This document shows, in pieces, positions 22,581-38,105 of a stretch of DNA of 53,257 nt. Numbering within the stretch: the first letter of the stretch is position 1; every line of letters begins with the position of its first letter. Location: assembly GCA_964504105.1 (NCBI GenBank), contig CAZDDB010000001.1, forward strand, positions 1 to 53,257, written 5' to 3'. A program made the position numbers and the translations under genes. The notes below the pieces were generated by a model that was not told where the DNA came from, made no database searches, and saw only the letters and a list, made by a program, of their open reading frames with translations. The DNA comes from an uncultured Acidobacteriota bacterium. Its GTDB lineage: Bacteria > Acidobacteriota > HRBIN11 > JAKEFK01.

Positions 22581-22599
22581 TTTGGTTTTTGCAATTCCA

Positions 22600-23094: not shown

Positions 23095-23137
23095 CGCGTA
23101 AATTATAATGGCGCGGTTTGTTAACGCGCAAGTTTTC

Positions 23138-23166
23138 TTGACAGCCCGAATGAGCGCATATATCAT
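23138..23166 (+). promoter_or_regulatory. candidate sigma-70 promoter of the bifunctional-nuclease gene
   Basis: TTGACA-N17-TATCAT, about 50 nt upstream of ATG 23218, which has an AAGGAG RBS. Confidence 0.45.
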
Positions 23167-23217
23167 ACATCGTAGGTTTTCGGGGAAAGTGGGCCTCTCA
23201 GGGTTAAGGAGCTGCCT

Positions 23218-26154: not shown

Positions 26155-26499
26155 ATGGAAATCCTTCAACGTCGCCGCGGAAATGTCGTAATTCTGGATA
26201 TTCATGGAGCCATCTCGATGGGAGAGAGCAAAGAGAAGTTTGCGCAGGTCATGGACGAACTTCTTTCCGAGAAGAGTGTGAATGTCCTGGTGAATTTTTC
26301 AGGTATCAATTACGTGGACAGCACGGGCATTGGCGAAATGGTGGGATACTTGAACAAGTTTGTGGAGAGCAACCGTCAGTTGAAAATTTTAAAACCGCAC
26401 GATCGCGTCCTGAAGCTGCTCCAGATTACAAAGCTTGATTCCATGTTTGAAATCTACCAGGACGAGGAAGAAGGACTGAAAAGCTTCTCCCCTGATTAG
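26155..26499 (+). CDS. STAS-domain anti-sigma-factor antagonist (SpoIIAA/RsbV-like)
   Basis: 114 aa. Conserved phosphorylatable loop YVDSTGIGEMV. Starts 1 nt after the lpxH-like stop. Confidence 0.85.
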   Translation: MEILQRRRGNVVILDIHGAISMGESKEKFAQVMDELLSEKSVNVLVNFSGINYVDSTGIGEMVGYLNKFVESNRQLKILKPHDRVLKLLQITKLDSMFEIYQDEEEGLKSFSPD

Positions 26500-26532
26500 G
26501 ACCCCTATATCATTTCCAGGAGGCTCCATTCC

Positions 26533-27054
26533 ATGCTCATTCGATTGTTCCGTCACTTTTTTTTGATTGCGCTTCTGTTCGCAGCTTTCATCCCCACCGT
26601 TTCGCAGGGACAGCCTGAAAAAGACGAAGAAGATAAAGGAAATATCGAAGACTCATTTCAGGCAAGAATCAAAAATTACTATGAAGCCTGGAATACGTTG
26701 GATACGGAGAAGGCTGGAATCTTTTATGCAAAGGACGCGGATCTGGTTTTCTATGACATCGCCCCGCTGAAATATACCGGATGGGACGAATACAAGACGG
26801 GAGTCAAGAAACTCCTGGAGCCTTACACCAGCTTTCGGCTCGTTCCGGCGGACGACTTGAAGATTTCGCGGCGCGGGAAAATTGTCTGGACCACAATCGG
26901 ATGTCATTTTTCCGGCGTGTTGAAGGATGGGACAAAGGCTGAGTTGGAGGGCCGTCACACTGCCATCTGGGAAAAACAAAAAGGGGAATGGCTCATTGTT
27001 CATGAGCATGTGTCCGTCCCGCTGGCCGCGTCTCCATCAAGCGGCACGAAATGA
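26533..27054 (+). CDS. secreted SnoaL-like / NTF2-fold (DUF4440-like) protein
   Basis: Signal peptide LIALLFAAFIPTVSQG. Pattern ..YYEAWNTLD..GKIVWTT..HTAIWEKQKGEWLIVHEHVS is typical of the NTF2-like fold. Confidence 0.6.
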   Translation: MLIRLFRHFFLIALLFAAFIPTVSQGQPEKDEEDKGNIEDSFQARIKNYYEAWNTLDTEKAGIFYAKDADLVFYDIAPLKYTGWDEYKTGVKKLLEPYTSFRLVPADDLKISRRGKIVWTTIGCHFSGVLKDGTKAELEGRHTAIWEKQKGEWLIVHEHVSVPLAASPSSGTK

Positions 27055-27079
27055 TGTCTAATTACTTAGAGCTAATCAA

Positions 27080-27427
27080 TTAGAATGAAGAGATGGCCGC
27101 TGCTTCGTCCTCGAAAACCTCGAAGATCCCCAGCAGGCCGGTGATTTTCAATGTATGGCGGACCATCTTTCCCGGATTCAGCAATTTCAGCTTTCCGCCG
27201 CTCTGGGTGATCGTCGTATAGCTCTTGACGATCGCCCCGATCCCTGAGCTGTCCATGAACTCCACCGTCTCCAGATTCAGCACTACGCGGTTGTAGTTGC
27301 GCGAGGTCAGATCGGCAATCGCATCCTTGTAACGCTGTTCGTTCGCCCCGACCGTAAGATTTCCGATCAGATCCAGGACTACAACATCCCCTTTCTTTCG
27401 TTTTTGAATATCGAACTCATGATCCAT
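27080..27427 (-). CDS. STAS-domain anti-sigma-factor antagonist (SpoIIAA/RsbV-like)
   Basis: 115 aa. Loop FMDSSGIGAIV with a phosphorylatable Ser. Confidence 0.85.
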   Translation of the reverse strand: MDHEFDIQKRKKGDVVVLDLIGNLTVGANEQRYKDAIADLTSRNYNRVVLNLETVEFMDSSGIGAIVKSYTTITQSGGKLKLLNPGKMVRHTLKITGLLGIFEVFEDEAAAISSF

Positions 27428-27582
27428 TTGCCAACTCCATTTCCGGGAAACCTGCGGGGTTTCCGAACATTGATTGCCCGATGGAAAAATGCTAACATCA
27501 GCGCAAATTGTTTCTGCGCTCAGGACAGGGCTATTATAATTTTGACGTTCCTTGCAGTCAAACCTGAGATAGCGAGGTAGAA

Positions 27583-30009
27583 ATGGCTGAAGAAGCGAGC
27601 AGCAAAATATTTCAGTTGTACCGGCTGGCGTATTCGCTGATTTTTTGCCGCTCCCTTCCGGAGATCCTGGAAACAGCTACTACCAATCTTGCGAAATCGA
27701 CCGGCACGCGCAATGCGATCCTCTGGCAGTTTTCAGCGTCTCAGGCCAGCTTGATTCCCGCTCATCTTCAGCTGGAAGATAAATCGACCCGTACGCGCAC
27801 CGTTTCACTCGGATCTGATTTTCTGGGTGAGGTCTTTCGCAGCGGCAAACCACTTTTTCTGGATGCCGAAAAGTTGCAAGAGTCGAACAAACACGTTCAG
27901 TTCTCCAAAGAAACGATTCTGATCTCCGGCCTTTGCATCCCATTTAAAGGAAAGCCTGAACTTGAAGGGGTGCTTGAACTCGTAAATAAAGCGGAAGGGG
28001 CGTCGACGTTTAACGAGGACGATGCCGAATATGTGAGTAAGGCGATGGAACTGGTGCAGGTCGCAGCGGCCAACATGAAGTCCTATGAAGAACAGGCCCG
28101 CAACCAGCTGAACGCGATTACCAGACTGACGCTTCTGTATGACATAAGCCAGATCTTCAATTCCACGCTGGAACTGGGGCAGTTGCTCCCGATCATCGGT
28201 GAGAAAATTCGCGACATCCTGGATGCCGAAACATGCACCGTCTGGCTTCTGGATGAAACGGGAGAAAAAATCTATTGCGCAAAGAGTTCGGGCGCCTATG
28301 GAGAACTGTTTAAGAAGCTTCGTCCAAAATTGGAAGAGGACATAGCTGGAGAAATCATTCAGCAGGGAGAGGGGATCCTTTTGGAGGATGCGAGCGAAGA
28401 CGAACGCCTGTTGAAACGGATGCCGGATAAAGAGGAGCACCCCGTTGTTACCTATATGGCTTCTCCGCTGGAATGCAAAGGAAAGATTCTTGGCACGCTG
28501 GAAGTTCTCAATCGCGTGAACGAGAACCTCCCCAACTTCAATGAAGAGGACCAGTTTCTGTTAAACGATCTTTCGCATCAGGCAGCGGTTTCCATTCACA
28601 ATGCAAACCTGCTTCAGGCCGAACGGAAAGCAAAAGAACTCGATGCGTTGTTGAGCATCAGCCATGAGATCACGTCCACTCTCAACCTGGATCGTGTTTT
28701 GCTGACGATTGTCAATCAGGCGGCCTCGCTTCTTCCGTACGACCGTGCGGCGATTGCGTTGATGGAAAAGAATAAGCTGGAACTCGTTGCGGTTTCAGGA
28801 ATCATGGAAGTCGACAAGAAGAGCGAGCCCATGATTGATCTCCAGCAAATACTCCTGTGGAGTCTGCAAAGCGGCAAGTCGATGTACATTTCGGAATTCA
28901 ACGAGAAGATCGCTACGGATCGCGAGGAAACACGTGAAAAATTCAAGGCCTACTTCGCCCGCTCCGGTATGAAATCATTTGTCTCCATTCCTCTGAAAGA
29001 TGAAGAAGGGGAACTGGGGATCCTGAGCTTTGAAAGCGATACCGCTTATTTTCTGGATGAACGTCATCTTGAGGTTGCCAGCATTCTTTCGAACCAGGCT
29101 ACGGTCGCGATTCGCAATGCGCAGTTGTACCGCCAGATGCCCTTGATCAACATTATGGGACCGATCATGCAGAAAAAGGCCCTCCTCATGAAAATGCCGC
29201 AGGGCCGCAGGATGGCGTGGGGGGCAGGGATCGCTCTTGCTCTTGCGATTCTGATTCTTGTCCCCTGGAACATGAAGCTTGTTGGAGATGTTACTGTTCT
29301 TCCCGCTCGAAAGACACCTGTGGCGAGTCAGGTGGAAGGCATTGTCAAGAAGGTGTATCTGCGCGAGGGAGCCCGAATCAAGAAAGGCACCCTGATCGCG
29401 TCTCTTGAGGACAACGATTACAGACTTGCCCTGCAACAAAAGCATACGGAGCGAGATGTACTGCAGAAGGAGATCAGTCGCAGTCAAAGCATCGGTGATT
29501 CAGCATCTGCGAGGATGCAGCAGATCCAGTTAGACCAGGTTCTCAGAGAAATTGAATTTTACGAATACAATCTGAATGCCACGAGGATCGTTGCTCCCCT
29601 CGACGGTGTGCTGATCACCCCCAGGATTGAGGAAAAGACCGGTTCACTGCTCGTGAAGGGGGAGGCGTTCTGTGAAGTGGCCGACATGCGTTCGCCCCGT
29701 GCTGAAATCGAGGTCGAAGAGGGGGACGCGGCCTTCGCCGGGACTGGTCAGAAGGTCAGTTTAAAGATGAACGCATACGCTACGCAGAAATTTTACGGGA
29801 CAGTCAATCTTCTGGGTACGCAACTTGTTGCTCGAGATACGGAACACTACTATCGCCTGGAAGCGCAAATTGACAATCCGGACCTGCTGCTCAAGTCGGG
29901 AATGGTAGGAAAAGCAAAAGTGGAGGTTGGCTACCGCAGCATCGGCTATGTCTTATTACGAAAGCCCTTCCGATTTATATGGAAAAAGTTTTGGGTCTGG
30001 CTCCCCTGA
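27583..30009 (+). CDS. triple-GAF / TM / HlyD-family membrane-fusion-protein fusion
   Basis: RBS GAGG 7 nt upstream. About 530 aa of three GAF-like modules, TM helix MAWGAGIALALAILILVPW, then HlyD features (VASQVEGIVKKVYLREGARIKKGTLIASLED, coiled coil, IVAPLDGVLITP). Confidence 0.85.
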   Translation: MAEEASSKIFQLYRLAYSLIFCRSLPEILETATTNLAKSTGTRNAILWQFSASQASLIPAHLQLEDKSTRTRTVSLGSDFLGEVFRSGKPLFLDAEKLQESNKHVQFSKETILISGLCIPFKGKPELEGVLELVNKAEGASTFNEDDAEYVSKAMELVQVAAANMKSYEEQARNQLNAITRLTLLYDISQIFNSTLELGQLLPIIGEKIRDILDAETCTVWLLDETGEKIYCAKSSGAYGELFKKLRPKLEEDIAGEIIQQGEGILLEDASEDERLLKRMPDKEEHPVVTYMASPLECKGKILGTLEVLNRVNENLPNFNEEDQFLLNDLSHQAAVSIHNANLLQAERKAKELDALLSISHEITSTLNLDRVLLTIVNQAASLLPYDRAAIALMEKNKLELVAVSGIMEVDKKSEPMIDLQQILLWSLQSGKSMYISEFNEKIATDREETREKFKAYFARSGMKSFVSIPLKDEEGELGILSFESDTAYFLDERHLEVASILSNQATVAIRNAQLYRQMPLINIMGPIMQKKALLMKMPQGRRMAWGAGIALALAILILVPWNMKLVGDVTVLPARKTPVASQVEGIVKKVYLREGARIKKGTLIASLEDNDYRLALQQKHTERDVLQKEISRSQSIGDSASARMQQIQLDQVLREIEFYEYNLNATRIVAPLDGVLITPRIEEKTGSLLVKGEAFCEVADMRSPRAEIEVEEGDAAFAGTGQKVSLKMNAYATQKFYGTVNLLGTQLVARDTEHYYRLEAQIDNPDLLLKSGMVGKAKVEVGYRSIGYVLLRKPFRFIWKKFWVWLP

Positions 30010-30025
30010 TGTAACCCTGCCCAAA

Positions 30026-32080
30026 ATGCGATCGGATCTGGTGATCCGTCGGCAGGTCCATCAGAAAGAAGTCTATTACATCGTCAAAGATCCCCCGGCG
30101 ATGGCGTACTTTAACTTTCCTCCTTCCGAACACGAAATCCTGACGCTCTTTGATGGAAAGCGAACGGATGAGGAAATCATTGATGAATACAACCGGAGGC
30201 ATCCGTTGGAAATCATCGATGAAGACGGATTGGCAGCCTCGAAGGCAGGGTTTCGGGAAATGGAACTCCTCGAGATCCCTCCACGTGTCAAGAACCTGAT
30301 GCTTATGGAGCGTATCCGCGCTCAGCGGCAACTTCGAAAGAAAGCCACCGAAGGCGACATTTTTTACATGACGTTTTCCGCCTGGGACCCGGACAGAATC
30401 TTTAACCGTGTGATTCCGTATCTCCGCTTCTTCTGGACGCGCGAATTTCTTCTGATTTCTGCTGTTTGCATCCTGATGATGCTCGGAATCAACTATGTCA
30501 AATGGGAAGAATTTAAGCAGGGCACGATTGAACTTTATTCGTTTAGTAATAAATCGCTGTGGGAAGTTTTCGTATTTATTTTTCTGATGACGGCTACCGG
30601 CACGGTTCACGAGCTTGCTCACGGACTGACTCTGAAGAATTATGGCGGAGAAGTTCATCAGGTGGGTTTTCTGCTGTTTTACCTTACTCCCGCATTCTAC
30701 GCAGACGTCAGCGATTCGTATATCCTTCCGCGGAAAGAGCGCCTGTGGACTACGCTTGCAGGGACATATGCCGAGTTGATGCTCTGTTCCATCGCCTCCT
30801 TTGTCTGGTATTTTGCTGTGCCGGGAACGCTGATCTACTACTTTGCCTTTCAGGTGATTCTGTTTACAGGCATTTCTTCCTTCCTGATCAATATGAACCC
30901 CCTCATCAAGCTGGATGGATACTTCATCCTGATGGATACGTTGGAAATACCGGATCTTCGCGAAGAATCCTTTTCTTTCGTTGTTCGATGGGTCAAGAAG
31001 AATGTCTTCGGGTTACAGGTAGAAGAAGAGGAGCAGACAACGCGGCGGAGACGGCGTATTTTTATCACTTATGCCTTCTTTGCCATGCTGTACACTCTCA
31101 CAATCTACCTGTTGGTAGTGATCTGGATACGGAATATCTATCTCAACTCCTTTGGAAGGGTTGGTTATTTTCTGTTCCTGGTTACGGTGTATTTCCTTTT
31201 CCGGAAAGAAATCAAGGAAATATTTCAATTCGGCAAGTTTGTCTATCTGGATAAGAAAGAGGTGCTTATGAAGAAGAAACCTGCCATCTGGATCGGCGGC
31301 GGGATCGCGCTGATTTTGCTTCTGGTGTTTCCCGCGCACACAAAGATTTCGAGCGCTTTTGTTGTGGAACCTTCCCAAAGAGTGGAAGTGCGAGCCGGAA
31401 CAGACGGGTTTATTGACCAGGTGCTTGTTCGCGAAAGTGATTCCGTTCAGCCGGGCCAAGTCCTTGTCCGAATGAAGAATCGTGATATGGACCTTCACGT
31501 TATGCAGATCAGCTCCGGGTTGGAGCAGCGAACCCGCACTTTATATGCCCTGCAGTCGTTGGAAGACAAAGCAGAATATCAGATGAGACAGCGTGAGCAG
31601 AAACAGCTTCTGGAACAGAAAACGGAGTTGGATCGAAAGATTGGGCAGCTGGTTCTGAAGTCGCCGATTCGAGGAACAGTCATGACTCCCCGCGTGGATG
31701 AGTTGACCGGAACATATGTTGAAAAGGGCGTGCTGGTTTGCGTGATTGGATCGCTGGATCGAGTTCGGATCCAGATCCCGGTGCAAGAGTATGCGATAGA
31801 GGACATTTCGGTCGGTCGGGAGGTCGTGCTAAAACTGGACGCTTATCCGACGAAAACATATCCCGGTGTGGTGGCGGAAATCTCTTCTGCCGGAACAGAA
31901 AGAGTGGATGCAATCGAGGGATCCTTTGCGAAATTTATGGTAACGGTATTGATTGAGAATCAGGATCGCCGGTTGGTTCCTGGAATGAGAGGGGACGCGA
32001 AGATTTTGGGCCCGAGATATCCAACGATCTGGAGGATGGGCCGCGAAGTCCGCCGCTGGATACAGTCGCGTGTCTGGTGA
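30026..32080 (+). CDS. PqqD/RRE-like N-domain / site-2-protease (M50) / HlyD fusion protein
   Basis: HELAH and NMNPLIKLDG metalloprotease motifs in a multi-TM core. N-terminal YYIVKDPPAMAYFNFPPSEHEILTLFDGKRTDEEIIDEY. C-terminal TM plus HlyD unit. The start is uncertain: ATG 30026 is chosen, and in-frame ATG 29948 / TTG 29927 would overlap the upstream gene. Confidence 0.8.
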   Translation: MRSDLVIRRQVHQKEVYYIVKDPPAMAYFNFPPSEHEILTLFDGKRTDEEIIDEYNRRHPLEIIDEDGLAASKAGFREMELLEIPPRVKNLMLMERIRAQRQLRKKATEGDIFYMTFSAWDPDRIFNRVIPYLRFFWTREFLLISAVCILMMLGINYVKWEEFKQGTIELYSFSNKSLWEVFVFIFLMTATGTVHELAHGLTLKNYGGEVHQVGFLLFYLTPAFYADVSDSYILPRKERLWTTLAGTYAELMLCSIASFVWYFAVPGTLIYYFAFQVILFTGISSFLINMNPLIKLDGYFILMDTLEIPDLREESFSFVVRWVKKNVFGLQVEEEEQTTRRRRRIFITYAFFAMLYTLTIYLLVVIWIRNIYLNSFGRVGYFLFLVTVYFLFRKEIKEIFQFGKFVYLDKKEVLMKKKPAIWIGGGIALILLLVFPAHTKISSAFVVEPSQRVEVRAGTDGFIDQVLVRESDSVQPGQVLVRMKNRDMDLHVMQISSGLEQRTRTLYALQSLEDKAEYQMRQREQKQLLEQKTELDRKIGQLVLKSPIRGTVMTPRVDELTGTYVEKGVLVCVIGSLDRVRIQIPVQEYAIEDISVGREVVLKLDAYPTKTYPGVVAEISSAGTERVDAIEGSFAKFMVTVLIENQDRRLVPGMRGDAKILGPRYPTIWRMGREVRRWIQSRVW

Positions 32081-32183
32081 AGAAATCGTTTGGGGGGCGG
32101 GCCTCCGTGCCCGCCGAAGAAGTTAGCGGAATCCGGCAGGCAGGGACGCCCGCCCCTCCGGATCGGATTGTGGACAAAAGCAA

Positions 32184-32216
32184 AAGGCCATCCCGGAGGA
32201 TGGCCCTTGTTTTTTG
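32184..32216. terminator. bidirectional rho-independent terminator between convergent genes
   Basis: Stem GGCCATCC / GGATGGCC with a 4-nt loop. It is flanked by an A-run on the 5' side and GTTTTTT on the 3' side, so a U-tract is present on both strands. Confidence 0.7.
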
Positions 32217-32225
32217 TGCGTGTGA

Positions 32226-32507
32226 TCAGCCCACTCTTTTTGGATTGGCTCTCTTTGCCGCTCTCTTTGGATTGGCTCTCTTTGCCGCCCTTTTTGGATT
32301 GGCTCTCTTTGCCGCTCTCTTTGGATTGGCTCTCTTTGCCGCTCTTTTCGGATTCGCTCTCTTTGCCGCCCTTTTCGCCGCAAGTCTCGGGGCCAGCATC
32401 GGCGTTACTTTCGCCTCAACCGTTTCCACCTTGATTTCCGGCTGTTCCGAACGAGCCTGTCTCAACTGTTCTTTTTGTTCCTCGGTCATTTCAAATTTAT
32501 CTGGCAT
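32226..32507 (-). CDS. small acidic-N / basic-repeat protein (5 x AAKRANPKR), histone-H1-like composition
   Basis: AGGAGG 8 nt upstream of ATG 32507, a sigma-54 promoter about 40 nt upstream, and a terminator downstream. 93 aa. Confidence 0.7.
   Translation of the reverse strand: MPDKFEMTEEQKEQLRQARSEQPEIKVETVEAKVTPMLAPRLAAKRAAKRANPKRAAKRANPKRAAKRANPKRAAKRANPKRAAKRANPKRVG
32232..32380. repeat. 27-bp tandem repeat, about 5.5 copies (unit ctctttgccgctctctttggattggct)
   Basis: Read directly. Units start at 32249, 32276, 32303 and 32330, with partial copies at both ends. In frame with the 93-aa minus-strand ORF. Confidence 0.9.
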
Positions 32508-32543
32508 TTTCTTTTCCTCCTATTCGATCTTTGCACTTTGAGC

Positions 32544-32563
32544 TATTGCAATCCTCTTGCCAA
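32544..32563 (-). promoter_or_regulatory. sigma-54 (-24/-12) promoter
   Basis: Minus strand reads TTGGCAAGAGGATTGCAATA, matching TGGCAC-N5-TTGCW with GG and GC at canonical spacing. Confidence 0.7.
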
Positions 32564-32635
32564 CTATCATTTCCTCGGAGGCAACGTAAAGGAGAGTCTT
32601 ATCAGAGTAAATTTTCATCCTTGAAGGAGAAGGAG

Positions 32636-32652
32636 AGGTGAATTTTTCACCT
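32636..32652. promoter_or_regulatory. perfect 7-3-7 palindrome AGGTGAAtttTTCACCT, candidate enhancer-binding-protein site (UAS)
   Basis: Centred about 95 nt upstream of the -12 element of the sigma-54 promoter. Confidence 0.4.
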
Positions 32653-32672
32653 GAGGTATTCTTGCGCAAGCC

Positions 32673-34052
32673 CTAAAGGTCATATTTTCGGGAGAGGTAC
32701 TTCATCTGGTTTTTGTCGAGACCGAGGCTCTGTGCTGCTTTGGTTTTGACACCGCTGGCTTTTTGCAAGGCATCCTGAAGAAGCTGACGCTCGAATTTTT
32801 CTACGGCCTGATCAAAGGTCATTCCCGCATCAAGACGAATGTCAGGCGATCCGGAGTCACGATGTTCCTTTTGAATGTATGAAGGGAGATCCCGCGCTCG
32901 GATCGTTTTTTGGTCGCTCATGAGGATCAAAGTCTGCACCAGATTTTCCAGCTCGCGGACATTTCCTTTCCATGAATACGAAACCAGGGGTTGCAGGGCA
33001 TCCGGATCAAAATTCTTTACAGGGATACCATTCTCCTTACAAAACAGATGCAGAAAGTGATTCAACAGGGCCGGGATGTCTTCCGTCCGTTCCCGGAGCG
33101 GGGGGACATGAATCGGAAATACGTGAACGCGGTAGTAAAGGTCCTCACGGAATTGTTCTTCCTTTACTTTCTTTTCGAGATCTTCATTGGTAGCGGTAAT
33201 CAGCCGAACGTCTGCTGAAATCTGTTTGGTTCCGCCGATCCGATCGAACCGACGCTCTTGCAGGACGCGCAACAGTTTGGCCTGAACGGAAAGACTGATG
33301 GATCCGATTTCATCAAGGAACAACGTGCCGCCGTGAGCCAGTTCAAAGCGTCCCGCGCGCGCCGACACGGCGCCTGTAAACGCACCGCGCTCATGACCGA
33401 ACAGTTCCGATTCAATCAGGGTTTCCGGCAGTGCTGCGCAATTGACGCTCACAAACGCCTTTTCGCGCCGGCGGCTGTTGTAATGAATCGCGCGCGCGAT
33501 CAACTCTTTGCCCGTCCCGCTCTCCCCGCGGATGATCACGGTTGCGGGAGTATCCGCCACGCGCCTGATTGCATCGAAAACGCGCAGCATCGGCGGGCTT
33601 TGCCCGATCATGTTTTCGAAGGAATAGCGGTTCTGTAACTCCCGGTGCAGCCGGTCATTTTCCAGCTGGATCCTTTGTTTTTCGAGCGCACGACCGATGA
33701 TCAGCTTCAGTTCCGTCAAATCAAACGGTTTCTTAAAAAAATCGTAAGCGCCTGCATCCACCGCTTTCTGGATCGCCTTCATGTCCGCGTCACCGGACAT
33801 CACAATAATGATTGTTTCCGGAAGGTCTCTCCGGATCGTTTCGATCAGAGACATTCCTTCCTGGATCTTTCCTGTGGGAGGCATATGCAGATCTACAAGC
33901 GCCAGCTCCGGCTTTTCCTGCAATAGCAGACGTTCCCCTTCGATCCGGTCACCGGCCTCGATGACTTCGTAATCTTTGTTCAGGGCGAACGAGAGCTGCT
34001 GACGGAGAAGGCGATCATCCTCCACCACAGCAATTTTTTTATGTGGGAGCAT
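32673..34052 (-). CDS. sigma-54-dependent response regulator (NtrC family: REC - AAA+ - Fis HTH)
   Basis: Start at ATG 34052 (MLPHKKIAVVEDD..). REC domain with acceptor Asp in LALVDLHMPP, Walker A GESGTGKE, GAFTGA loop, and a C-terminal HTH. Overlaps the kinase stop by 14 nt. Confidence 0.9.
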   Translation of the reverse strand: MLPHKKIAVVEDDRLLRQQLSFALNKDYEVIEAGDRIEGERLLLQEKPELALVDLHMPPTGKIQEGMSLIETIRRDLPETIIIVMSGDADMKAIQKAVDAGAYDFFKKPFDLTELKLIIGRALEKQRIQLENDRLHRELQNRYSFENMIGQSPPMLRVFDAIRRVADTPATVIIRGESGTGKELIARAIHYNSRRREKAFVSVNCAALPETLIESELFGHERGAFTGAVSARAGRFELAHGGTLFLDEIGSISLSVQAKLLRVLQERRFDRIGGTKQISADVRLITATNEDLEKKVKEEQFREDLYYRVHVFPIHVPPLRERTEDIPALLNHFLHLFCKENGIPVKNFDPDALQPLVSYSWKGNVRELENLVQTLILMSDQKTIRARDLPSYIQKEHRDSGSPDIRLDAGMTFDQAVEKFERQLLQDALQKASGVKTKAAQSLGLDKNQMKYLSRKYDL

Positions 34053-34749
34053 TTTCTTCCGAAGGCAAATCAACGGGCAGGACAATCCGGAACGTGGTTC
34101 CCTCATTCGGGCTGCTTTCGACTTCAATCTTGCCGTGATGAAGCGCGAAGATCTGCTGGCTGGTGAACAAGCCCAGACCGAGGCCATTCTCTTTTGTGGT
34201 GATAAACGGACGGAACAGTTTGCTTTCCATAAAACCCTGGCTCATTCCGATGCCTGTGTCGGAAATCTCAACAATTACCCAGGGCTTTTTCCTGCGGCGC
34301 AACACTTTTGTCTTGACCCCCAGCGTGCCGCCTTCGGGCATCGCTTCTGCCGCGTTTTCGATGAGACTCTGAAATGCATTTTGTAAATAGAACGTGTCTC
34401 CCCAAAGCAGCGGCATCTCTCCAAGACTCAGTTCGATCTTCAGGTTCCGTGTCCTCCCGGAGGGGAGGGCATCCAGCAACCCTGCGAGGATCTGGTTGAG
34501 ATCCACGCGGACTTTTACCATGACGTGCTGCTGCTGTTCCTTGAACCGCTTCACAATATCGTTCATCTTGCGGATCGTGTCGCCCAAAACATCGAGCATA
34601 CTCTTCTTGAACAGTGGATTTTCGTAGTTGTCATCCATGTTTTGCAAGAGCGCGCTCAGGCGGAACGCCAGGTTCTTCATGTCATGGACGATCACGGAAT
34701 CAACAGTCTGTCCGACTGTGTTCTGACTATCTTTTCGTTTTCGTGTCAT
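34039..34749 (-). CDS. soluble histidine kinase core (HisKA + HATPase_c) without a sensor domain
   Basis: H-box SVIVHDMKNLAF, N-box LIENAAEAM, G-boxes DTGIGM and GLGLGL. 236 aa and no TM segment. Confidence 0.85.
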   Translation of the reverse strand: MTRKRKDSQNTVGQTVDSVIVHDMKNLAFRLSALLQNMDDNYENPLFKKSMLDVLGDTIRKMNDIVKRFKEQQQHVMVKVRVDLNQILAGLLDALPSGRTRNLKIELSLGEMPLLWGDTFYLQNAFQSLIENAAEAMPEGGTLGVKTKVLRRRKKPWVIVEISDTGIGMSQGFMESKLFRPFITTKENGLGLGLFTSQQIFALHHGKIEVESSPNEGTTFRIVLPVDLPSEENAPT

Positions 34750-34761
34750 CGATGGAACGGT

Positions 34762-36432
34762 TCAGCTGATTGTGTCCGGTTCTTGTTCGATTGCCGTGTA
34801 ACGCAGGATGAATACCGAAATATCATCCGACTGCGGTGTCCCCGCAGCGTGTTCCGCGACGGCCCGGAAAACGTTCGCAACAATTTCTTCCACAGACTTT
34901 TGCCGGTTTGCGTATAAAATGTTTTTCAAACTCTCTTCCCCCAGCATCTCCCCGCCTTCGCTGCGCGCTTCGGTGACCCCGTCGGTGAACAGGCAAACCA
35001 GGTCTCCCGGCTGAAGATACATGCTGATTTCCTGATACTTTGCAAAGTCAAAAGCTCCCAGAACGACAGAGGCAGAATACAATTCCTCTATGTGTCCATT
35101 CGCGTGGATTACAATCGGTGGATTGTGCCCCGCATTGACGTATCGAAGTTCCCCATCGCGCGAGATTGCCCCATAGAATAGGGTAATGAACTTGTCCGAA
35201 TTAGTGCGGAGAACAAGATACTTGTTCACACTCTCCAGACAGGCCGCGAGAGAGTCACATCGTAGTGCTTCCGCATAAAGAAACCCCTGCGCCATAGAAC
35301 ACAGGAGCGCGGCAGAAATTCCCTTCCCGGAGACATCTGCAATCACGAATCCGTACCGGTCCTCAGAAAGCTTGATCAAATCGTAGTAGTCTCCGCTGAT
35401 GTGACGGCTCGGAATGTTCTGGGCGCATGCCGAAAAAAAACTATACGCTCCGCGGATCTTAGGCAATAAAGTGGCCTGTATTTCATGTGCTGTTGCCAAC
35501 TCGGTCTCCAGACGTTCTTTCTCCCGCGATTCTTTCAGTAACCGCGCATTCTCTATGACTCCTGTCGCATCCGTGGCCAGCGAGTCCAGGATTCCCTGAC
35601 TGATCTTGGAAAAAGATTCCGTTGCCTTCTTACTATCCAGGTAAAGAGCGCCAAGCACATCTTTTCTGCCGACATAGGAAGAAGTGGAGAAATCGACTAC
35701 CTGGTACGACTGCAGGGGTAAACATGCAATGCTGCGAATTTCCAGATTGAGCATGCTTTCTGACATCACATACTTCTCCGGGCCCTGGACATCCGAAAGA
35801 AGAACCCTTTCGCCTGATTCCATCACCTGTTTGAGAATGGTCGTACTAATTTGAAACGCCTCTTCTGGAAGCGGCTGCTTGGCGCGGTTCCGGCCTCGTT
35901 GAAAACGTGGCTCTCCGTTCTTATCCTTCAGCACCAGGAACCCCCGTTCAGCGCGCGTAACTTCGATGGCCATATCCAGCACCAGGTCAAGGATTTCTCC
36001 AAGCGGGAGCGCGCCACTAAAGATTCTCGCCGTCTCCAAAAGCTTCGAAACATTCCGAAGATCGTTTCCCGCAAAGGACATGATAATCGAAGGCGTATCC
36101 GGCCCAAGTCCGGTATCCGTGGTGAGTTGATCTTCTCCCGTGAGAAAGACAGCTTGTGTTTCATTCCCGAGTTGAATCCGGTCCTGGTGCACGAGGATCT
36201 GGTTCTGGATTCGTGTTGCATTGACAAACGTACCGCACTTGCTTCCTTTGTCTACGATCCGGAATTTCTCGCCCTCCCGAATGATCTCAGCGTGGTGGCG
36301 GGAAACTGAAGCGTCATTGGTTTGAAGGTCATTCTCGCCACTTCGTCCGATCGTAAACCGGAGCGCCTCCAGGAAAATAGTTTGTTCTTCTCCCGTTGTG
36401 GAGCGAACAATCTTAATTCGAGGCTTCATCAT
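34762..36432 (-). CDS. FHA - GAF - PP2C(SpoIIE-type) serine phosphatase
   Basis: FHA: FTIGRSGENDLQ..VSRHHAEI..IVDKGSKCGTFVN. Central GAF-like module. PP2C: ISGDYYDL..FVIADVSGKGISAAL..FTDGVTEA. Confidence 0.85.
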   Translation of the reverse strand: MMKPRIKIVRSTTGEEQTIFLEALRFTIGRSGENDLQTNDASVSRHHAEIIREGEKFRIVDKGSKCGTFVNATRIQNQILVHQDRIQLGNETQAVFLTGEDQLTTDTGLGPDTPSIIMSFAGNDLRNVSKLLETARIFSGALPLGEILDLVLDMAIEVTRAERGFLVLKDKNGEPRFQRGRNRAKQPLPEEAFQISTTILKQVMESGERVLLSDVQGPEKYVMSESMLNLEIRSIACLPLQSYQVVDFSTSSYVGRKDVLGALYLDSKKATESFSKISQGILDSLATDATGVIENARLLKESREKERLETELATAHEIQATLLPKIRGAYSFFSACAQNIPSRHISGDYYDLIKLSEDRYGFVIADVSGKGISAALLCSMAQGFLYAEALRCDSLAACLESVNKYLVLRTNSDKFITLFYGAISRDGELRYVNAGHNPPIVIHANGHIEELYSASVVLGAFDFAKYQEISMYLQPGDLVCLFTDGVTEARSEGGEMLGEESLKNILYANRQKSVEEIVANVFRAVAEHAAGTPQSDDISVFILRYTAIEQEPDTIS

Positions 36433-36445
36433 AAAACGAGGCGAC

Positions 36446-37228
36446 TTACGGGGAGGTGGCGGCTGTCCCTTGACCGGGCTTTGTGCGAAGAATCACCTTT
36501 CCCGAAGTTCCGGGTCTCAGCAAACCTTTTCCTTGGCCCGGATCCAGCTCGACGATCGCCTGCGCGGTGCCGCTGGCTGCGTCAATCGTTGAACTGATCC
36601 ATTTCACCCTCCCTGCGAAACTCTTTCCCGTGGCGACATTCGGCACAAAATCTGCCTTCATTCCGGACGTGACTTGCGGCAACTGCTCTTCGGTGATCAA
36701 GATGCGCGCTAGAAGAGGCTCGAGGGCCGTGATCCGAAACAAAGGTGTGTTTTCGTCTTCCACGACACGTTGTCCAATCTTCGCGGATAGCTCAGCCACA
36801 ACTCCCGGGAAAGGGGCTTTGATGATACTCTTTTCAAATTCAACTTTTGCGATCTGATGCTGGGTTTCTGCCCGTTCATTGGAAAGACGCTTCAGATCAT
36901 ACTCTGATTCAGAAAGAAGTTTTTGATCGAAAAGTGACTTCGCTCTCTGATACTCCGCTTTCGTCTCTTCCATGGAGACTTCTGCTTTCTTCACTTCGAG
37001 AGCAAAATCTTCGTTCTGAAGTCTCGCGAGCGGATCTCCTTTCTTTACCCAGGAACCGCGGTCCACGAAAATCTGCTCGATGATCCCGGTCAGGCGGGAT
37101 TTTACTTCCACGTCGTTTTTGGTAAACAGTGCTGTATCAAAACGAAGCGGGGGATCCGCAGGAAAGGCCGCACCTGTAAGGAAAATGAATGTGAGGAGAG
37201 CAGGCAACCTTATATTTCGCAAACCCAT
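36446..37228 (-). CDS. short HlyD/RND-adaptor-like periplasmic protein
   Basis: Signal/anchor LPALLTFIFLTGAAF. Barrel-sandwich KSRLTGIIEQIFVDRGSWVKKGDPLARLQNED, a short coiled coil, and IIKAPFPGVVAEL. Confidence 0.8.
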   Translation of the reverse strand: MGLRNIRLPALLTFIFLTGAAFPADPPLRFDTALFTKNDVEVKSRLTGIIEQIFVDRGSWVKKGDPLARLQNEDFALEVKKAEVSMEETKAEYQRAKSLFDQKLLSESEYDLKRLSNERAETQHQIAKVEFEKSIIKAPFPGVVAELSAKIGQRVVEDENTPLFRITALEPLLARILITEEQLPQVTSGMKADFVPNVATGKSFAGRVKWISSTIDAASGTAQAIVELDPGQGKGLLRPGTSGKVILRTKPGQGTAATSP

Positions 37229-37298
37229 CGTTACCTCAAGTTAGCACAATCCTCGAGCAAATCAAAGCCGTGGGAACGCCCGCGCTACAAACGCGACG

Positions 37299-37327
37299 TT
37301 GACTGAAAATTGAATTGTCTCTAGAAT
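37299..37327 (+). promoter_or_regulatory. candidate sigma-70 promoter giving a leaderless or very short-leader cNMP-FHA/uvrA transcript
   Basis: TTGACT-N17-TAGAAT. The -10 hexamer ends 10 nt before ATG 37338 and no Shine-Dalgarno is visible. Confidence 0.5.
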
Positions 37328-37337
37328 TGACTTACAA

Positions 37338-38105
37338 ATGACCTCCGAGCTTTTCGAGAAGTACCGGGTATCGTATAAGAGGGGACAAATCATTTTTTCC
37401 GAGGGAGACCTGGGGAACGAGATGTTCATCATCCAGAACGGAAAGGTCCGTATCTTTAAGAACATCGATAACTTCGATCAGACGCTGACTGTTTTGGAAA
37501 AGGGGGACTTCTTCGGGGAGATGTCTATTCTGGAAGGAATGCCCCGCTCCGCTTCCGCTGAATCGGAAGAGGATTGCGAGCTGATCAAGATCAACAGCGC
37601 GAATTTTGTCTCGATGATTAAATCGAACATCGAGATCGCGATCAGGATCATGCGAAAACTTTCGTTGCGGCTCCGTGAGGCAAACCAGCAGATCGAAAAA
37701 CTCATGCACGCTTCCACGGAGATGTTTCCTTTGCCCGAACCTCCCCCAGTGAAACAAACAAAGGCAGCCGATGCGCAGGCGTATCTCGTATCCGCGATGT
37801 CGGGGAAAACATTTTCTCTTGGCAAAGAGGAGGCGTATGTCGGGCGGGTGGACCGCGTAACGGGAGCTGTTCCTGATATTGATCTGTCGGATGAAGACCC
37901 CAAACGCTTTATCTCGCGCCGTCATGCAAAGATCGTCAAACAAGAGGAAGAGTTTCTTCTGGTGGAAGAAATCGGCACCGTAAACGGCACGTTTCTGAAC
38001 AATCAGAGATTGGCCACCGGAGCTCCTGTGCCATTAAAAAACGGCGATACGTTGACGTTTGCCAATATCACGCTTACCTTTTATCACACAGCGGCCGAAT
38101 CATAA
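37338..38105 (+). CDS. cyclic-nucleotide-binding domain + FHA domain protein
   Basis: cNMP-binding pattern GDLGNEMFIIQNGKVRI..GDFFGEMSILEG.PRSASA. C-terminal FHA: YVGR..ISRRHAKI..GTVNGTFLNN. Confidence 0.85.
   Translation: MTSELFEKYRVSYKRGQIIFSEGDLGNEMFIIQNGKVRIFKNIDNFDQTLTVLEKGDFFGEMSILEGMPRSASAESEEDCELIKINSANFVSMIKSNIEIAIRIMRKLSLRLREANQQIEKLMHASTEMFPLPEPPPVKQTKAADAQAYLVSAMSGKTFSLGKEEAYVGRVDRVTGAVPDIDLSDEDPKRFISRRHAKIVKQEEEFLLVEEIGTVNGTFLNNQRLATGAPVPLKNGDTLTFANITLTFYHTAAES

What the first reader, a model, noticed from the sequence alone, without database searches (positions are those of the whole stretch)
26155..38105. Integrated hypothesis: a 12-kb envelope-spanning sensing and proteolysis locus with a sigma-54 output
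Within 12 kb the window concentrates many signalling and envelope modules: three HlyD-type periplasmic units, one intramembrane M50 protease, four GAF modules, one cNMP-binding domain, two of the three FHA domains, a PP2C phosphatase, two STAS proteins, a kinase/sigma-54 regulator pair and a sigma-54-controlled repeat protein. There is no transporter, outer-membrane factor, anti-sigma kinase or sigma factor. Taken together this looks like one functional neighbourhood. Cytoplasmic second-messenger and phospho-Thr inputs would gate a membrane protease/adaptor complex. The same signals, or the protease product, would drive sigma-54-dependent expression of a basic repeat protein. This is inference from domain content and gene packing only.
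Basis: inference. Interest (0 to 1): 0.7.

Follow-up and report, generated by a model that had tools for sequence, protein, structure and literature searches.

The report
Conserved peptide-processing and export gene module
Most of this 12-kb stretch is a gene module kept together in hundreds of soil Acidobacteria genomes, and it most likely makes small peptides on demand, cuts them with a membrane protease and passes them out through the cell envelope; no such system has been described.

Summary
Comparison with 82 non-redundant related loci shows that most of the stretch is one conserved module: STAS, 3xGAF-TM-adaptor, a short adaptor, an M50-adaptor fusion and a convergent sigma-54 activator. 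Between protease and activator lie small genes, each with its own activator-binding sites and -24/-12 promoter (64 of 68 loci).

The FHA-GAF-PP2C gene is an accessory (5 of 52 loci). The cNMP-FHA, UvrA and SnoaL genes are only lineage neighbours (0-1 of 52).

The new point concerns the protease. It has an N-terminal RiPP-recognition-element fold, as in the daptide protease MpaP, then a site-2-protease core, then a MexA/MacA-like periplasmic adaptor.

The "basic repeat protein" (32226-32507, minus strand, not in the public protein collection searched) belongs to a family with a conserved leader and a hypervariable tail or tandem repeats. Relatives carry 20-40-residue Lys-rich peptides in arrays.

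It is therefore most likely the protease's substrate (a precursor peptide), not merely a regulatory output.

The proposed mechanism is sigma-54-induced precursors, leader-guided intramembrane cleavage and release through a three-adaptor conduit. This is inferred, not shown. I found no family model or paper that covers it.

The parts
26155..26499 (+). STAS protein 1 (114 aa), DSTG motif; possibly part of the module
   Evidence: Pfam STAS 52 bits; TIGR00377 58 bits. Same-strand STAS genes precede GAF-HlyD in layout-B loci.
27080..27427 (-). STAS protein 2 (115 aa) with the phosphorylatable-Ser motif DSSG, divergent from GAF-HlyD
   Evidence: Pfam STAS 73.7 bits. A STAS gene lies within 7 kb upstream in 53/68 loci. 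The DSSG motif is kept in 62/66 homologues.
27583..30009 (+). 3xGAF (cytoplasmic) - one TM helix (residues 544-562) - HlyD-type periplasmic adaptor, 808 aa
   Evidence: Pfam GAF x3, HlyD_D23, HlyD_3. TM segment. Adjacent to the M50-HlyD gene in 74/75 loci.
29948..32080 (+). RRE - site-2-protease (M50-like, HExxH...NxxPxxxxDG) - TM - periplasmic adaptor fusion. 710 aa from ATG 29948 (the length on record, matching homologues' N-termini). Analysed here from ATG 30026 (684 aa).
   Evidence: NCBIfam daptide_HExxH 200 bits over residues 51-425. Invariant H195/E196/H199 and N289..D297-G298. AF2 model pLDDT 84.8. Residues 436-684 match ZneB/MacA/MexA/AcrA. Residues 1-80 match the RRE proteins TbiB1, TfuB1, CteB and SkfB.
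32183..32208 (.). Bidirectional hairpin terminator between the convergent protease gene and small gene
   Evidence: 11-bp stem with a T-run on the minus strand, 8-bp stem with a T-run on the plus strand.
32226..32507 (-). Small protein, 93 aa. Proposed leader is residues 1-36 (MPDKFEMTEEQKEQLRQARSEQPEIKVETVEAKVTP). The rest is a basic tandem-repeat part (AAKRANPKR units). Proposed precursor peptide.
   Evidence: ORF, RBS aggagg, 27-bp x 5.3 tandem repeat. Homologous leaders in 26 loci. Pro36 aligns with the ...LEERIAP end of short-tailed relatives. Variants with 1 and 2 repeat units exist. The exact sequence is absent from the protein collection.
32548..32562 (-). Sigma-54-type -24/-12 promoter element, TGGCAAGAGGATTGC, about 39 nt before the start codon
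   Evidence: The same element is in the same place in 64/68 related loci: 1.09/kb against 0.07/kb on the other strand and 0.077/kb elsewhere. No sigma-70-like site in 32000-32750.
32605..32651 (-). Two putative activator-binding sites (UAS): palindrome GGTGAAAAATTCACC (32637-32651) and degenerate GGATGAAAATTTACTC (32605-32620)
   Evidence: Sequence. Exact palindrome located. One or two GGTTGAAAAATTCAACC-like palindromes sit 60-150 nt upstream of the promoter in both layouts.
32673..34052 (-). NtrC-type response regulator / sigma-54 enhancer-binding protein (REC with Asp, AAA+ with GAFTGA, HTH_8), 459 aa from ATG 34052
   Evidence: Pfam Sigma54_activat 247 bits, Response_reg, HTH_8. PrsR-like at 458 bits, below the 502.6 cut-off. 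Convergent to the protease gene in 59/62 loci.
34039..34749 (-). Soluble histidine kinase (236 aa, H-box HDMKN, no TM helix, no sensor domain)
   Evidence: Pfam HATPase_c 74 bits. Matches the C-terminal 200 residues of PrsK at 148 bits. No TM segment. Present in 22/61 loci, in just those whose activator keeps the phospho-Asp.
34762..36432 (-). FHA-GAF-PP2C (SpoIIE-type) phosphatase; accessory member
   Evidence: Pfam SpoIIE 161 bits, FHA 69 bits, GAF 31 bits. Present in 5/52 loci, including distant ones (L009, L036).
36446..37228 (-). Short periplasmic adaptor (260 aa, N-terminal signal/anchor)
   Evidence: Pfam HlyD_D23 79 bits; TIGR01730 145 bits, above the 94.9 cut-off. A separate short adaptor is present in 58/59 loci.
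37338..38105 (+). cNMP-binding + FHA protein; a neighbour, not a conserved member
   Evidence: Pfam cNMP_binding 87 bits, FHA 49 bits. Found in 1/52 related loci, a close relative only.

Best explanation
The core of the stretch (27080-37228, possibly from 26155) is a conserved Acidobacteriota module. It most likely produces, processes and releases small ribosomal peptides.

1. The response regulator/sigma-54 activator binds two palindromic sites and switches on a sigma-54 promoter in front of the small gene. Its input here is the soluble kinase. In relatives without a kinase the receiver has lost its phospho-Asp, so the input must differ.
2. The product is a precursor with a conserved ~36-residue leader and a variable part. 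In this genome the variable part is a run of basic 9-residue repeats. In relatives it is either other repeats or a 3-12-residue tail on a short Lys-rich peptide.
3. The cytoplasmic RRE domain of the membrane protease binds the leader.
4. The site-2-protease core cuts near the conserved Pro that ends the leader.
5. The C-terminal periplasmic adaptor of the same protein, together with the GAF-adaptor and the short adaptor, forms a periplasm-spanning conduit. This presumably docks on a TolC-like channel encoded elsewhere and lets the peptide(s) out.
6. The cytoplasmic GAF triad and the STAS protein gate the machine. The PP2C phosphatase joins them in this lineage.

Shown: the parts, their conservation as a set, the promoter/UAS cassettes, the RRE, S2P and adaptor folds, and the leader/variable anatomy.

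Inferred: binding, cleavage, export, and the role of GAF/STAS.
For: Module conservation:
- 82 non-redundant loci show the same set in two gene orders, plus a third order without the sigma-54 activator.
- The RRE-S2P part has 1317 cluster representatives at E<=1e-30, and most of the top 150 are 680-820 aa, i.e. long enough to carry the adaptor.

Protease:
- It matches the daptide intramembrane protease model over RRE plus core at 200 bits, E 6e-59.
- Literature states that MpaP is an RRE fused to a site-2 protease that removes the leader. The M50 protease EpeP is thought to both cleave and export its peptide.
- In the AF2 models, residues 1-80 are beta-beta-beta-alpha-alpha-alpha. Their best PDB matches are leader-bound RRE proteins: TbiB1 (TM 0.56-0.71), TfuB1, CteB and SkfB.
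- The C-terminal part has an alpha-hairpin, lipoyl and beta-barrel domains like MexA/MacA, E about 1e-14.

Substrate candidates:
- Small ORFs with an RBS follow a sigma-54 element in 64/68 loci, in arrays of 1-5.
- In 20 genes of one peptide class, chosen by that motif, the first 18 residues are nearly fixed and the 3-11-residue tail is different in almost every gene.
- Repeat-type proteins share a leader but not the repeat unit or even its charge.
- Third codon positions vary most: entropy 1.27 against 0.79 and 0.65.
- Repeat copy number varies among variants with the same leader, at 1, 2 and 5 units.
- Peptide type tracks the locus layout, 65 of 68.

Independent arrangement:
- In L085 and L093 two leader-type peptide genes (...EELEERIAP plus a 4-8 aa tail) sit directly upstream of GAF-HlyD on the same strand, followed in L085 by HlyD and M50-HlyD (L093 ends within GAF-HlyD). 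There the regulator is BTAD/AAA_16, not a sigma-54 activator.
- Their leader end aligns with VEAKVTP of the window protein. It also resembles the daptide leader motif ELExMEAP quoted.

Possible modification enzyme:
- In 13 related loci a SET-domain (lysine methyltransferase fold) gene lies between the activator and the Lys-rich peptide genes.
Against: - No cleavage, binding or export has been observed; all is inference from sequence, models and gene order.
- No energy-coupled transporter and no outer-membrane channel is conserved within 10 kb. None is in the window either. An export route is therefore incomplete as encoded.
- No modifying enzyme is present in this locus, so it is not a classical RiPP cluster.
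- The protein scores below the curated cut-offs of both RiPP-protease families: 200 against 300, and 57 against 225.
- The N-terminal domain has no Pfam PqqD hit, and its Foldseek E-values are only about 0.02.
- The short Lys-rich peptides and the long leader+repeat proteins are not demonstrably homologous.
- Two of six leader-family members looked up lie away from any M50-HlyD gene.
- The window's own leader is a divergent member: it has RSEQ where relatives have ATGQ.
Confidence: 0.55

Rival explanations
1. The module is an envelope-sensing signalling pathway. The M50 protease carries out regulated intramembrane proteolysis of some membrane regulator. Cytoplasmic inputs (GAF, STAS, PP2C, FHA, cNMP) gate it. 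The kinase/sigma-54 activator then switches on the small basic protein, which is an intracellular effector such as a histone-H1-like nucleoid or RNA-binding protein. The small protein is an output, not a substrate.
For: - The window protein's C-terminal half has 23 K/R and no D/E.
- A relative's repeats score 35 bits against Pfam HC2, the histone-H1-like nucleoprotein family, which is below the 40-bit cut-off.
- Site-2 proteases classically act in signalling (established knowledge: RseP, SpoIVFB).
- The sigma-54 control and the many sensor domains are real.
Against: - No membrane-anchored anti-sigma or regulator substrate is conserved in the module.
- The protease carries a leader-peptide-binding RRE fold instead of the PDZ-type gate of signalling S2Ps.
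- The repeats are acidic or neutral in several relatives (LRAGDQES, ADRANPTAL), so nucleic-acid binding cannot be the conserved role.
- Hypervariable tails, tandem paralogue arrays and repeat-number polymorphism fit precursors better than a housekeeping effector.
- In layout C the peptide genes stay with the three adaptor proteins and lose the sigma-54 activator.
- The cNMP-FHA gene is not conserved.
Confidence: 0.2
2. The three adaptor proteins serve an efflux or secretion pump whose inner-membrane transporter and outer channel are encoded elsewhere. The M50 domain is a quality-control or assembly protease of that machine. The small sigma-54-driven proteins are regulators or cytoplasmic plugs of the pump (or of the activator), and are not exported cargo.
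For: - Adaptors normally work with ABC, RND or MFS transporters (established knowledge; one search shows the adaptor fold).
- The short adaptor passes the RND_mfp cut-off, 145 bits against 94.9.
Against: - No transporter is conserved next to the module. The ABC-type genes that recur upstream in some relatives look like pstCAB-phoU.
- The fusion of the adaptor to the RRE-S2P is the dominant architecture. This ties peptide recognition and cleavage physically to the conduit.
- This model does not explain the leader/variable anatomy of the small proteins.
Confidence: 0.12
3. The genes are unrelated neighbours that happen to be rich in common signalling domains, and there is no shared function.
For: GAF, FHA, STAS, HlyD and sigma-54 activators are common domains (general knowledge). 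Some of the listed genes (cNMP-FHA, SnoaL, UvrA) indeed prove to be mere neighbours.
Against: Order and orientation of the core genes are kept at 31-37% protein identity across several classes of Acidobacteriota and into Bdellovibrionota: 74/75, 58/59 and 59/62. The promoter/UAS cassette is kept in 64/68 loci.
Confidence: 0.02

Closest known systems
Daptide leader protease MpaP (RRE fused to an intramembrane site-2 protease; NCBIfam NF041824)
   Same: - Same RRE + M50-like core, aligned over 375 residues at 200 bits.
- RRE fold confirmed by model.
- Small neighbouring precursor genes, often several.
- Relatives' leader end ...ELEERIAP resembles the daptide motif ELExMEAP.
   Different: - Below the family cut-off of 300 bits.
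- No MpaB/C/D/M modification enzymes.
- A C-terminal periplasmic adaptor is fused on.
- Found in diderm Acidobacteriota, whereas the daptide paper describes clusters from Actinomycetota and Bacillota.
- Precursors have no invariant C-terminal Thr.
- Expression is sigma-54 controlled.
Epipeptide protease YydH/EpeP/LiaK (M50; NF058609)
   Same: An M50-type membrane protease that matures a small ribosomal peptide and is thought to also export it. It matches at 57 bits.
   Different: - Far below the cut-off of 225 bits.
- No radical-SAM epimerase or ABC transporter (YydG, YydIJ; from my own knowledge).
- Has the extra RRE and adaptor domains.
Eep/RseP-type site-2 proteases that release peptide pheromones in Firmicutes (established knowledge, not tested here)
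   Same: An M50 protease generates short C-terminal peptides from small precursors with a Lys-rich N-terminus. The layout-A peptides (MAKKTLKKSKK...KPL + tail) have that look.
   Different: - Those substrates are signal-peptide-like and hydrophobic, and export uses a separate ABC transporter.
- Here the peptides are hydrophilic.
- Here the protease has an RRE and an adaptor instead of PDZ domains.
Type 1 secretion / bacteriocin exporters (peptidase-containing ABC transporter + HlyD-type adaptor + TolC)
   Same: Leader-dependent cleavage is coupled to an envelope-spanning adaptor conduit. The adaptor fold has a TolC-docking-type alpha-hairpin.
   Different: - No ABC ATPase; the cleaving unit is a metalloprotease fused to the adaptor.
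- There are three different adaptors, one with a cytoplasmic GAF triad.
- No outer-membrane factor gene lies nearby.
PrsK/PrsR two-component system of PEP-CTERM/exosortase loci (TIGR02916/TIGR02915)
   Same: The best-scoring named relatives of the kinase (148 bits) and of the sigma-54 activator (458 bits).
   Different: - Both are below cut-off (300 and 502.6 bits).
- The kinase lacks the large membrane part of PrsK.
- No exosortase or PEP-CTERM proteins are present in the locus.
Multi-core precursor peptides (e.g. cyanobactin PatE-type; established knowledge)
   Same: One leader is followed by tandem copies of a short unit, with copy number varying between strains.
   Different: No recognisable flanking recognition or cleavage sequences, and no heterocyclase or macrocyclase. 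Whether the repeats are cut apart is unknown.

Membership tests
Site-2 protease / peptidase M50 | HExxH zinc site in a membrane helix | tested here: met
   HELAH at residues 195-199. H195, E196 and H199 are invariant in 18 and 73 homologues. They lie in helix 178-205 of the model.
Site-2 protease / peptidase M50 | Second motif NxxPxxxxDG (third zinc ligand Asp) | tested here: met
   NMNPLIKLDGY. N289, N291, P292, L293, D297, G298 and Y299 are invariant.
Site-2 protease / peptidase M50 | Pfam PF02163 at or above its gathering score | tested here: not met
   23.0 bits against a 27.2 cut-off for the window protein. Many homologues carry a precomputed PF02163 hit.
Daptide protease MpaP family (NF041824) | Score at or above the curated cut-off (300 bits) | tested here: not met
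   200.1 bits, E 5.8e-59.
Daptide protease MpaP family (NF041824) | N-terminal RRE (three strands + three helices) fused to the protease | tested here: met
   Strands at 6-12, 15-22 and 27-31; helices at 33-41, 48-58 and 66-78. Foldseek top hits are TbiB1, CteB, TfuB1 and SkfB.
Daptide protease MpaP family (NF041824) | Neighbouring daptide modification enzymes and precursors ending in Thr | tested here: not met
   None among the genes of the window or of 82 related loci. Precursors end in varied residues.
YydH/LiaK epipeptide protease (NF058609) | Score at or above the cut-off (225 bits) | tested here: not met
   56.8 bits.
Periplasmic adaptor (membrane fusion protein, HlyD/RND_mfp) | Lipoyl/barrel-sandwich + beta-barrel + alpha-hairpin fold | tested here: met
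   Pfam HlyD_D23 and HlyD_3 in all three proteins. In the model, a hairpin at 486-540 and barrels; matches to ZneB, MacA, MexA, AcrA and EmrA at E 1e-14 to 1e-11.
Periplasmic adaptor (membrane fusion protein, HlyD/RND_mfp) | Cognate ABC/RND/MFS inner-membrane transporter and outer-membrane factor encoded with it | tested here: not met
   None in 26155-38105 or elsewhere in the window. None conserved within 10 kb in related loci.
NtrC-type sigma-54 enhancer-binding response regulator | REC with phospho-Asp + AAA+ sigma-54 interaction domain with GAFTGA + HTH_8 | tested here: met
   Pfam Response_reg, Sigma54_activat (247 bits) and HTH_8. GAFTGA is visible in the translation. The Asp column is kept in layout B, 20/21.
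PrsR / PrsK (PEP-CTERM regulators) | Scores at or above the equivalog cut-offs | tested here: not met
   458 against 502.6 bits, and 148 against 300 bits.
Sigma-54-dependent gene | -24 GG / -12 GC element at correct spacing upstream, with activator sites, conserved among relatives | tested here: met
   Actual sigma-54 dependence cannot be tested with these tools.
Partner-switching module (STAS / PP2C / anti-sigma kinase / sigma) | STAS with phosphorylatable Ser, plus a PP2C phosphatase | tested here: met
   DSSG/DSTG motifs; SpoIIE domain 161 bits.
Partner-switching module (STAS / PP2C / anti-sigma kinase / sigma) | RsbW/SpoIIAB-type kinase and a target sigma factor in the locus | tested here: not met
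   Neither is found in the stretch.
RiPP biosynthetic gene cluster | Precursor with conserved leader and variable core next to an RRE-containing protein | tested here: met
   (anatomy and adjacency only).
RiPP biosynthetic gene cluster | At least one post-translational modification enzyme | tested here: not met
   None in the window locus. A SET-domain gene is present in 13 related loci.

The most novel reading that the evidence does not exclude
A previously unrecognised kind of envelope-spanning machine, widespread in Acidobacteriota, in which recognition, cleavage and conduit are built into one set of proteins.

- A leader-reading intramembrane metalloprotease is fused to its own periplasmic adaptor.
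- It is joined by a GAF-sensor adaptor and a plain adaptor.
- It cleaves and ejects ribosomal peptides without any ATPase or proton-driven transporter.
- Its cargo genes are individual sigma-54/UAS cassettes encoding either arrays of Lys-rich mini-peptides or one leader followed by tandem-repeat 'poly-peptides'.
- These peptides would act as signals or weapons between soil bacteria.
Probability: 0.3. Interest if true: 0.85.

Novelty: new variant of a known kind. Interest (0 to 1): 0.72.

Why it matters
Acidobacteriota are among the most abundant soil bacteria, yet almost nothing is known about their peptide products or cell-cell signals. This module occurs in at least about 590 species-level genomes. 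Its protease core has more than 1300 sequence clusters (50% identity) at E<=1e-30.

If the proposed mechanism holds, it would define three things:
- a large untapped family of ribosomal peptides;
- a new way of coupling leader-guided intramembrane cleavage to an envelope conduit without a known energy source;
- a compact sigma-54 promoter cassette that can be used to find the cargo genes automatically.

It also shows that the small genes are missed by annotation: the one in this window is absent from the public protein collection searched.

Tried and rejected
- The plus-strand 154-aa ORF 32077-32541 was first taken as a gene. It has no family hit and is the antisense shadow of the repeat gene.
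- Pfam and NCBIfam on ten small proteins/peptides gave no family. The only hits were compositional: HC2 at 35 bits, Mucin-like, FliH.
- Pfam on the isolated N-terminal domain gave no PqqD hit at E<=1.
- A homologue search with the whole small protein was swamped by the repeats, giving 3 hits. A profile of the leaders alone worked, giving 68 hits.
- My first promoter pattern (TGG-N9-TGC[AT]) missed 16 loci whose -12 box reads TTGCG or TTGCC. It was replaced by TGG-N8-TTGC.
- The codon test on the MAKKTLKK class is partly circular, because the genes were chosen by peptide motif. The repeat on the leader+repeat class also picks genes by a short N-terminal motif, but scores 24 codons, most of them outside it.
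- Unbiased clustering of all ORFs in the loci looked for a conserved transporter or outer-membrane factor. It found only pstCAB-phoU-like genes, upstream in 20-29 layout-A loci (likely lineage synteny), and a SET-domain gene.
- PADLOC gave no defence-system relation, only generic cNMP-domain hits.
- Literature searches (7 of 10 used) found no description of an M50-HlyD fusion, of GAF-HlyD, or of these peptides. Two apparent leads, Chem Rev 2021 and the TMcin preprint, were irrelevant.
- One neighbourhood look-up failed for lack of capacity.
- The repeat finder did not report the 6+6 palindrome because its arms are too short.

Full report
**1. What is in the stretch**

On the plus strand:
- STAS, 26155-26499.
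- A SnoaL-like protein with a signal-like N-terminus, 26533-27054.
- A 3xGAF-TM-HlyD protein of 808 aa, 27583-30009.
- An M50-HlyD protein, ending at 32080.

On the minus strand:
- A second STAS, 27080-27427.
- An operon running HlyD (36446-37228), FHA-GAF-PP2C (34762-36432), a soluble histidine kinase (34039-34749) and an NtrC-type sigma-54 activator (32673-34052).

cNMP-FHA (37338-38105) is transcribed divergently and is followed by uvrA. No transporter, outer-membrane factor, anti-sigma kinase or sigma factor lies in 26155-38105. Pfam scans of the other large ORFs of the window found none elsewhere either.

**2. The repeat protein**

The 'basic repeat protein' is the minus-strand ORF 32226-32507 (93 aa). 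It has a strong RBS, a 27-bp unit repeated 5.3 times (AAKRANPKR), and a hairpin terminator at 32183-32208.

Its N-terminal 40 residues are net acidic. Its C-terminal 53 residues hold 23 K/R and no D/E.

The larger plus-strand ORF over the same DNA is an antisense shadow. The exact 93-aa sequence is not in the 15-billion-protein collection, so the gene is absent from the public gene calls in that collection.

Upstream lie:
- TGGCAA-N5-TTGCA at 32548-32562.
- No sigma-70-like site.
- A perfect palindrome GGTGAAAAATTCACC at 32637-32651, plus a degenerate second copy.

**3. Is the clustering more than chance?**

The M50-HlyD protein has 1414 scored homologues at E<=1e-10, mostly from Acidobacteriota. 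Its RRE-protease part alone has 1317 cluster representatives at E<=1e-30, and most of the best 150 are 680-820 aa.

I annotated 82 non-redundant loci with the window's own domains. Counts, in loci with enough flank:

| Component | Loci |
|---|---|
| GAF-HlyD next to the protease gene | 74/75 |
| Separate short HlyD | 58/59 |
| Convergent sigma-54 activator within 4 kb | 59/62 |
| STAS within 7 kb upstream | 53/68 |
| Kinase | 22/61 |
| FHA-GAF-PP2C | 5/52 |
| cNMP-FHA | 1/52 |
| uvrA | 1/52 |
| FHA-RDD | 0/52 |

Two gene orders recur:
- Layout A: STAS, GAF-HlyD, HlyD, M50-HlyD, activator.
- Layout B (this window): STAS, GAF-HlyD, M50-HlyD, activator, kinase, [PP2C], HlyD.

The PP2C loci include distant ones (L009, L036). 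The cNMP-FHA and uvrA cases are a close relative only. SnoaL and the metallophosphoesterase also appear only in that relative.

So the core is a conserved module, PP2C is an accessory, and cNMP-FHA, uvrA and SnoaL are neighbours.

The regulators are internally consistent:
- Activators with an adjacent kinase keep the receiver Asp (20/21).
- Activators without one have Gly or Ala there (40/40).
- The STAS DSSG motif is kept in 62/66.

**4. The sigma-54 cassettes and what they encode**

In the gap between the protease gene and the activator gene, TGG-N8-TTGC occurs on the activator's strand in 64/68 loci. The density is 1.09 per kb, against 0.07 on the other strand and 0.077 in the rest of the loci.

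Each element is preceded at 60-150 nt by one or two GGTTGAAAAATTCAACC-like palindromes. It is followed at about 50 nt by an RBS and a small ORF.

Layout-A loci carry 1-5 such cassettes in tandem. Each encodes a 20-40-residue Lys-rich peptide. In 20 genes of one class, picked by that motif, the first 18 residues (MAKKTLKKSKKLEATKPL) are almost fixed, while the following 3-11 residues differ in nearly every gene.

Layout-B loci carry one gene for a 66-227-residue protein. It has a conserved ~36-40-residue N-terminal part ((I)KLT(D/E)EQKxxIKEATG..EI(K/R)V...P). This is followed by tandem repeats whose unit, number and even charge differ between genomes: AAKRANPKR here, and MAKKAAPKQI, GLGKK, LRAGDQES, ADRANPTAL, GARASGKSI elsewhere.

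Further observations:
- Peptide type follows layout in 65 of 68 loci.
- Third codon positions of the leader are the most variable: entropy 1.27 against 0.79 and 0.65, as expected for a translated gene.
- Two public variants of the window protein have the same leader with one and two repeat units instead of five.
- No Pfam or NCBIfam model covers any of these proteins.

**5. The protease is a leader-reading enzyme with its own adaptor**

NCBIfam aligns residues 51-425 to the daptide intramembrane metalloprotease model (200 bits, cut-off 300). It aligns more weakly to the epipeptide protease family.

The daptide paper describes that enzyme as an RRE domain fused N-terminally to a site-2 protease that removes the leader. 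A review notes that the M50 protease EpeP is thought to both cleave and export its peptide.

The AlphaFold model of the window protein has pLDDT 84.8 with 73 sequences. It shows:
- Three strands and three helices at residues 6-78.
- A polytopic core with HExxH and NxxPxxxxDG, both invariant.
- After a last TM helix, a domain with a 55-residue alpha-hairpin and barrels. Its best PDB matches are ZneB, MacA, MexA, AcrA and EmrA, E 1e-14 to 1e-11.

The N-terminal domain modelled alone has pLDDT 86.4. It matches the leader-bound lasso RRE proteins TbiB1 and TfuB1 and the RRE domains of CteB and SkfB, with probability up to 1.0 and TM 0.5-0.7 but weak E-values of about 0.02.

Basic residues flanking the TM helices fit a cytoplasmic RRE and a periplasmic adaptor. 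This is read from the sequence and is an inference.

**6. Independent support from other arrangements**

A profile of the leaders found 68 short 'hypothetical' proteins. Of six looked up, four lie in the module:
- Two are in layout B (L091, L092).
- Two are in a third layout (L085, L093). There, two peptide genes (...IELSxEELEERIAP plus a 4-8-residue tail) stand directly upstream of GAF-HlyD on the same strand (L085 continues with HlyD and M50-HlyD; the L093 contig ends within GAF-HlyD). They sit beside a BTAD/AAA_16 regulator instead of a sigma-54 activator.

So the peptides stay with the three adaptor proteins even when the regulator changes.

The end of that leader aligns with VEAKVTP (Pro36) of the window protein. 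It also resembles the daptide leader motif ELExMEAP quoted.

Two others are elsewhere. One is next to FliB_C-domain proteins and one is an orphan.

In 13 layout-A loci a SET-domain gene (73 bits) lies between the activator and the Lys-rich peptide genes. This hints at lysine methylation of the peptides in that subgroup.

**7. Most likely mechanism**

Confidence is 0.55. Shown versus inferred is marked in the summary sections.
1. The activator, fed by the soluble kinase here, binds the palindromes and fires the sigma-54 promoter.
2. The small protein is made in the cytoplasm.
3. The RRE binds its leader.
4. The site-2-protease core cuts near the conserved Pro.
5. The product leaves through a conduit made of the three adaptors. 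This presumably docks on a TolC-type channel encoded elsewhere.
6. The GAF triad and STAS (with PP2C in this lineage) regulate the machine.

The weak points are:
- The lack of any energy-coupled transporter or outer channel in the module.
- The lack of a modifying enzyme here.
- The sub-threshold family scores.
- The total absence of experimental data.

**8. Rivals**

Relatives have non-basic repeats. The protease has an RRE rather than a PDZ-type gate. No membrane regulator substrate is conserved. Layout C keeps the peptides but drops the sigma-54 activator. I give it 0.2.
- *A pump-accessory model* gets 0.12.
- *Chance neighbourhood* is excluded for the core and holds only for the flanks.

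**9. Novelty**

The parts are known kinds: an RRE-site-2 protease, periplasmic adaptors, an NtrC-type activator and STAS/PP2C. The combination is not covered by any curated model or by any paper I could find in seven searches. That combination is:
- a protease fused to its own adaptor;
- a GAF-adaptor and a plain adaptor alongside it;
- no transporter;
- per-gene sigma-54/UAS cassettes;
- Lys-rich mini-peptides or leader-plus-tandem-repeat precursors.

The literature library is incomplete, so prior description elsewhere cannot be excluded. I rate it a new variant of a known kind, with a 0.3 chance that it is a truly new type of secretion/maturation machine.

Noticed in passing
L050 13369-13863 (-), L052 13466-13960 (-) and 11 other layout-A loci: A 165-aa SET-domain protein (Pfam SET 72-73 bits) is encoded between the sigma-54 activator and the Lys-rich peptide genes. 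It could be a lysine methyltransferase acting on the peptides.
   Followed up: partly
L085 2601-8064; L093 5423-7853: A third layout of the module. A BTAD/AAA_16 regulator is divergent from two leader-type peptide genes (46 and 51-52 aa, ...EELEERIAP + short tail). These are followed on the same strand by GAF-HlyD, then in L085 by HlyD and M50-HlyD (the L093 contig ends within GAF-HlyD). There is no sigma-54 activator, and a Ser/Thr kinase lies downstream in L085.
   Followed up: partly
L087 5299-6837 and 8466-10062; L088: Peptides of the same leader family lie next to FliB_C-domain proteins (one also with a CxxCxxCC domain), with no M50-HlyD gene within 7 kb. This may be a modifying-enzyme branch of the family.
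   Followed up: no
window 32234-32375; proteins P0121, P0122: Repeat copy-number polymorphism. Public variants with the identical leader have one or two AAKRANPKR units and end in KRAI, against five units ending in KRVG in the window.
   Followed up: partly
window 32226-32507 (-): The 93-aa gene is absent from the 15-billion-protein collection, while its neighbours from the same contig are present. The small cargo genes appear to be missed by the gene calls in that collection.
   Followed up: yes
activator genes of layout-A loci, e.g. L003 13576-14871 (-): Activators that lack an adjacent kinase have Gly or Ala in place of the receiver phospho-Asp (40/40). They still keep the acidic DD pocket in most cases. 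Their input signal is unknown.
   Followed up: yes
layout-A cassettes, e.g. L048, L052, L066 (between promoter and RBS): A conserved short 5'-UTR hairpin, GCCC-N4-6-GGGCAA, sits just upstream of the RBS of the Lys-rich peptide genes.
   Followed up: no
window 10083-13481 (+) and 41083-42300 (+): A 1132-aa Hanks-type Ser/Thr kinase with TPR repeats, and an FHA-zinc-ribbon-RDD membrane protein. These are possible sources and readers of phospho-Thr for the FHA domains of this lineage.
   Followed up: no
upstream flanks of about 20-29 layout-A loci, e.g. L019 1288-4768: pstCAB-phoU-like genes lie upstream of the STAS gene. This is probably lineage synteny rather than part of the module.
   Followed up: partly
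L076, L082 (Oligoflexia / Bdellovibrio MAGs): M50-HlyD, HlyD and a GAF-GAF-HlyD gene occur together outside Acidobacteriota, with no sigma-54 activator or STAS detected in the flanks.
   Followed up: no
window 15210-23394: A molybdenum-enzyme cluster (molybdopterin oxidoreductase, xanthine-dehydrogenase-type subunits, XdhC, MobA-like), followed by parA-parB at 23835-25380. It is syntenic in the close relative L002 and unrelated to the finding.
   Followed up: no
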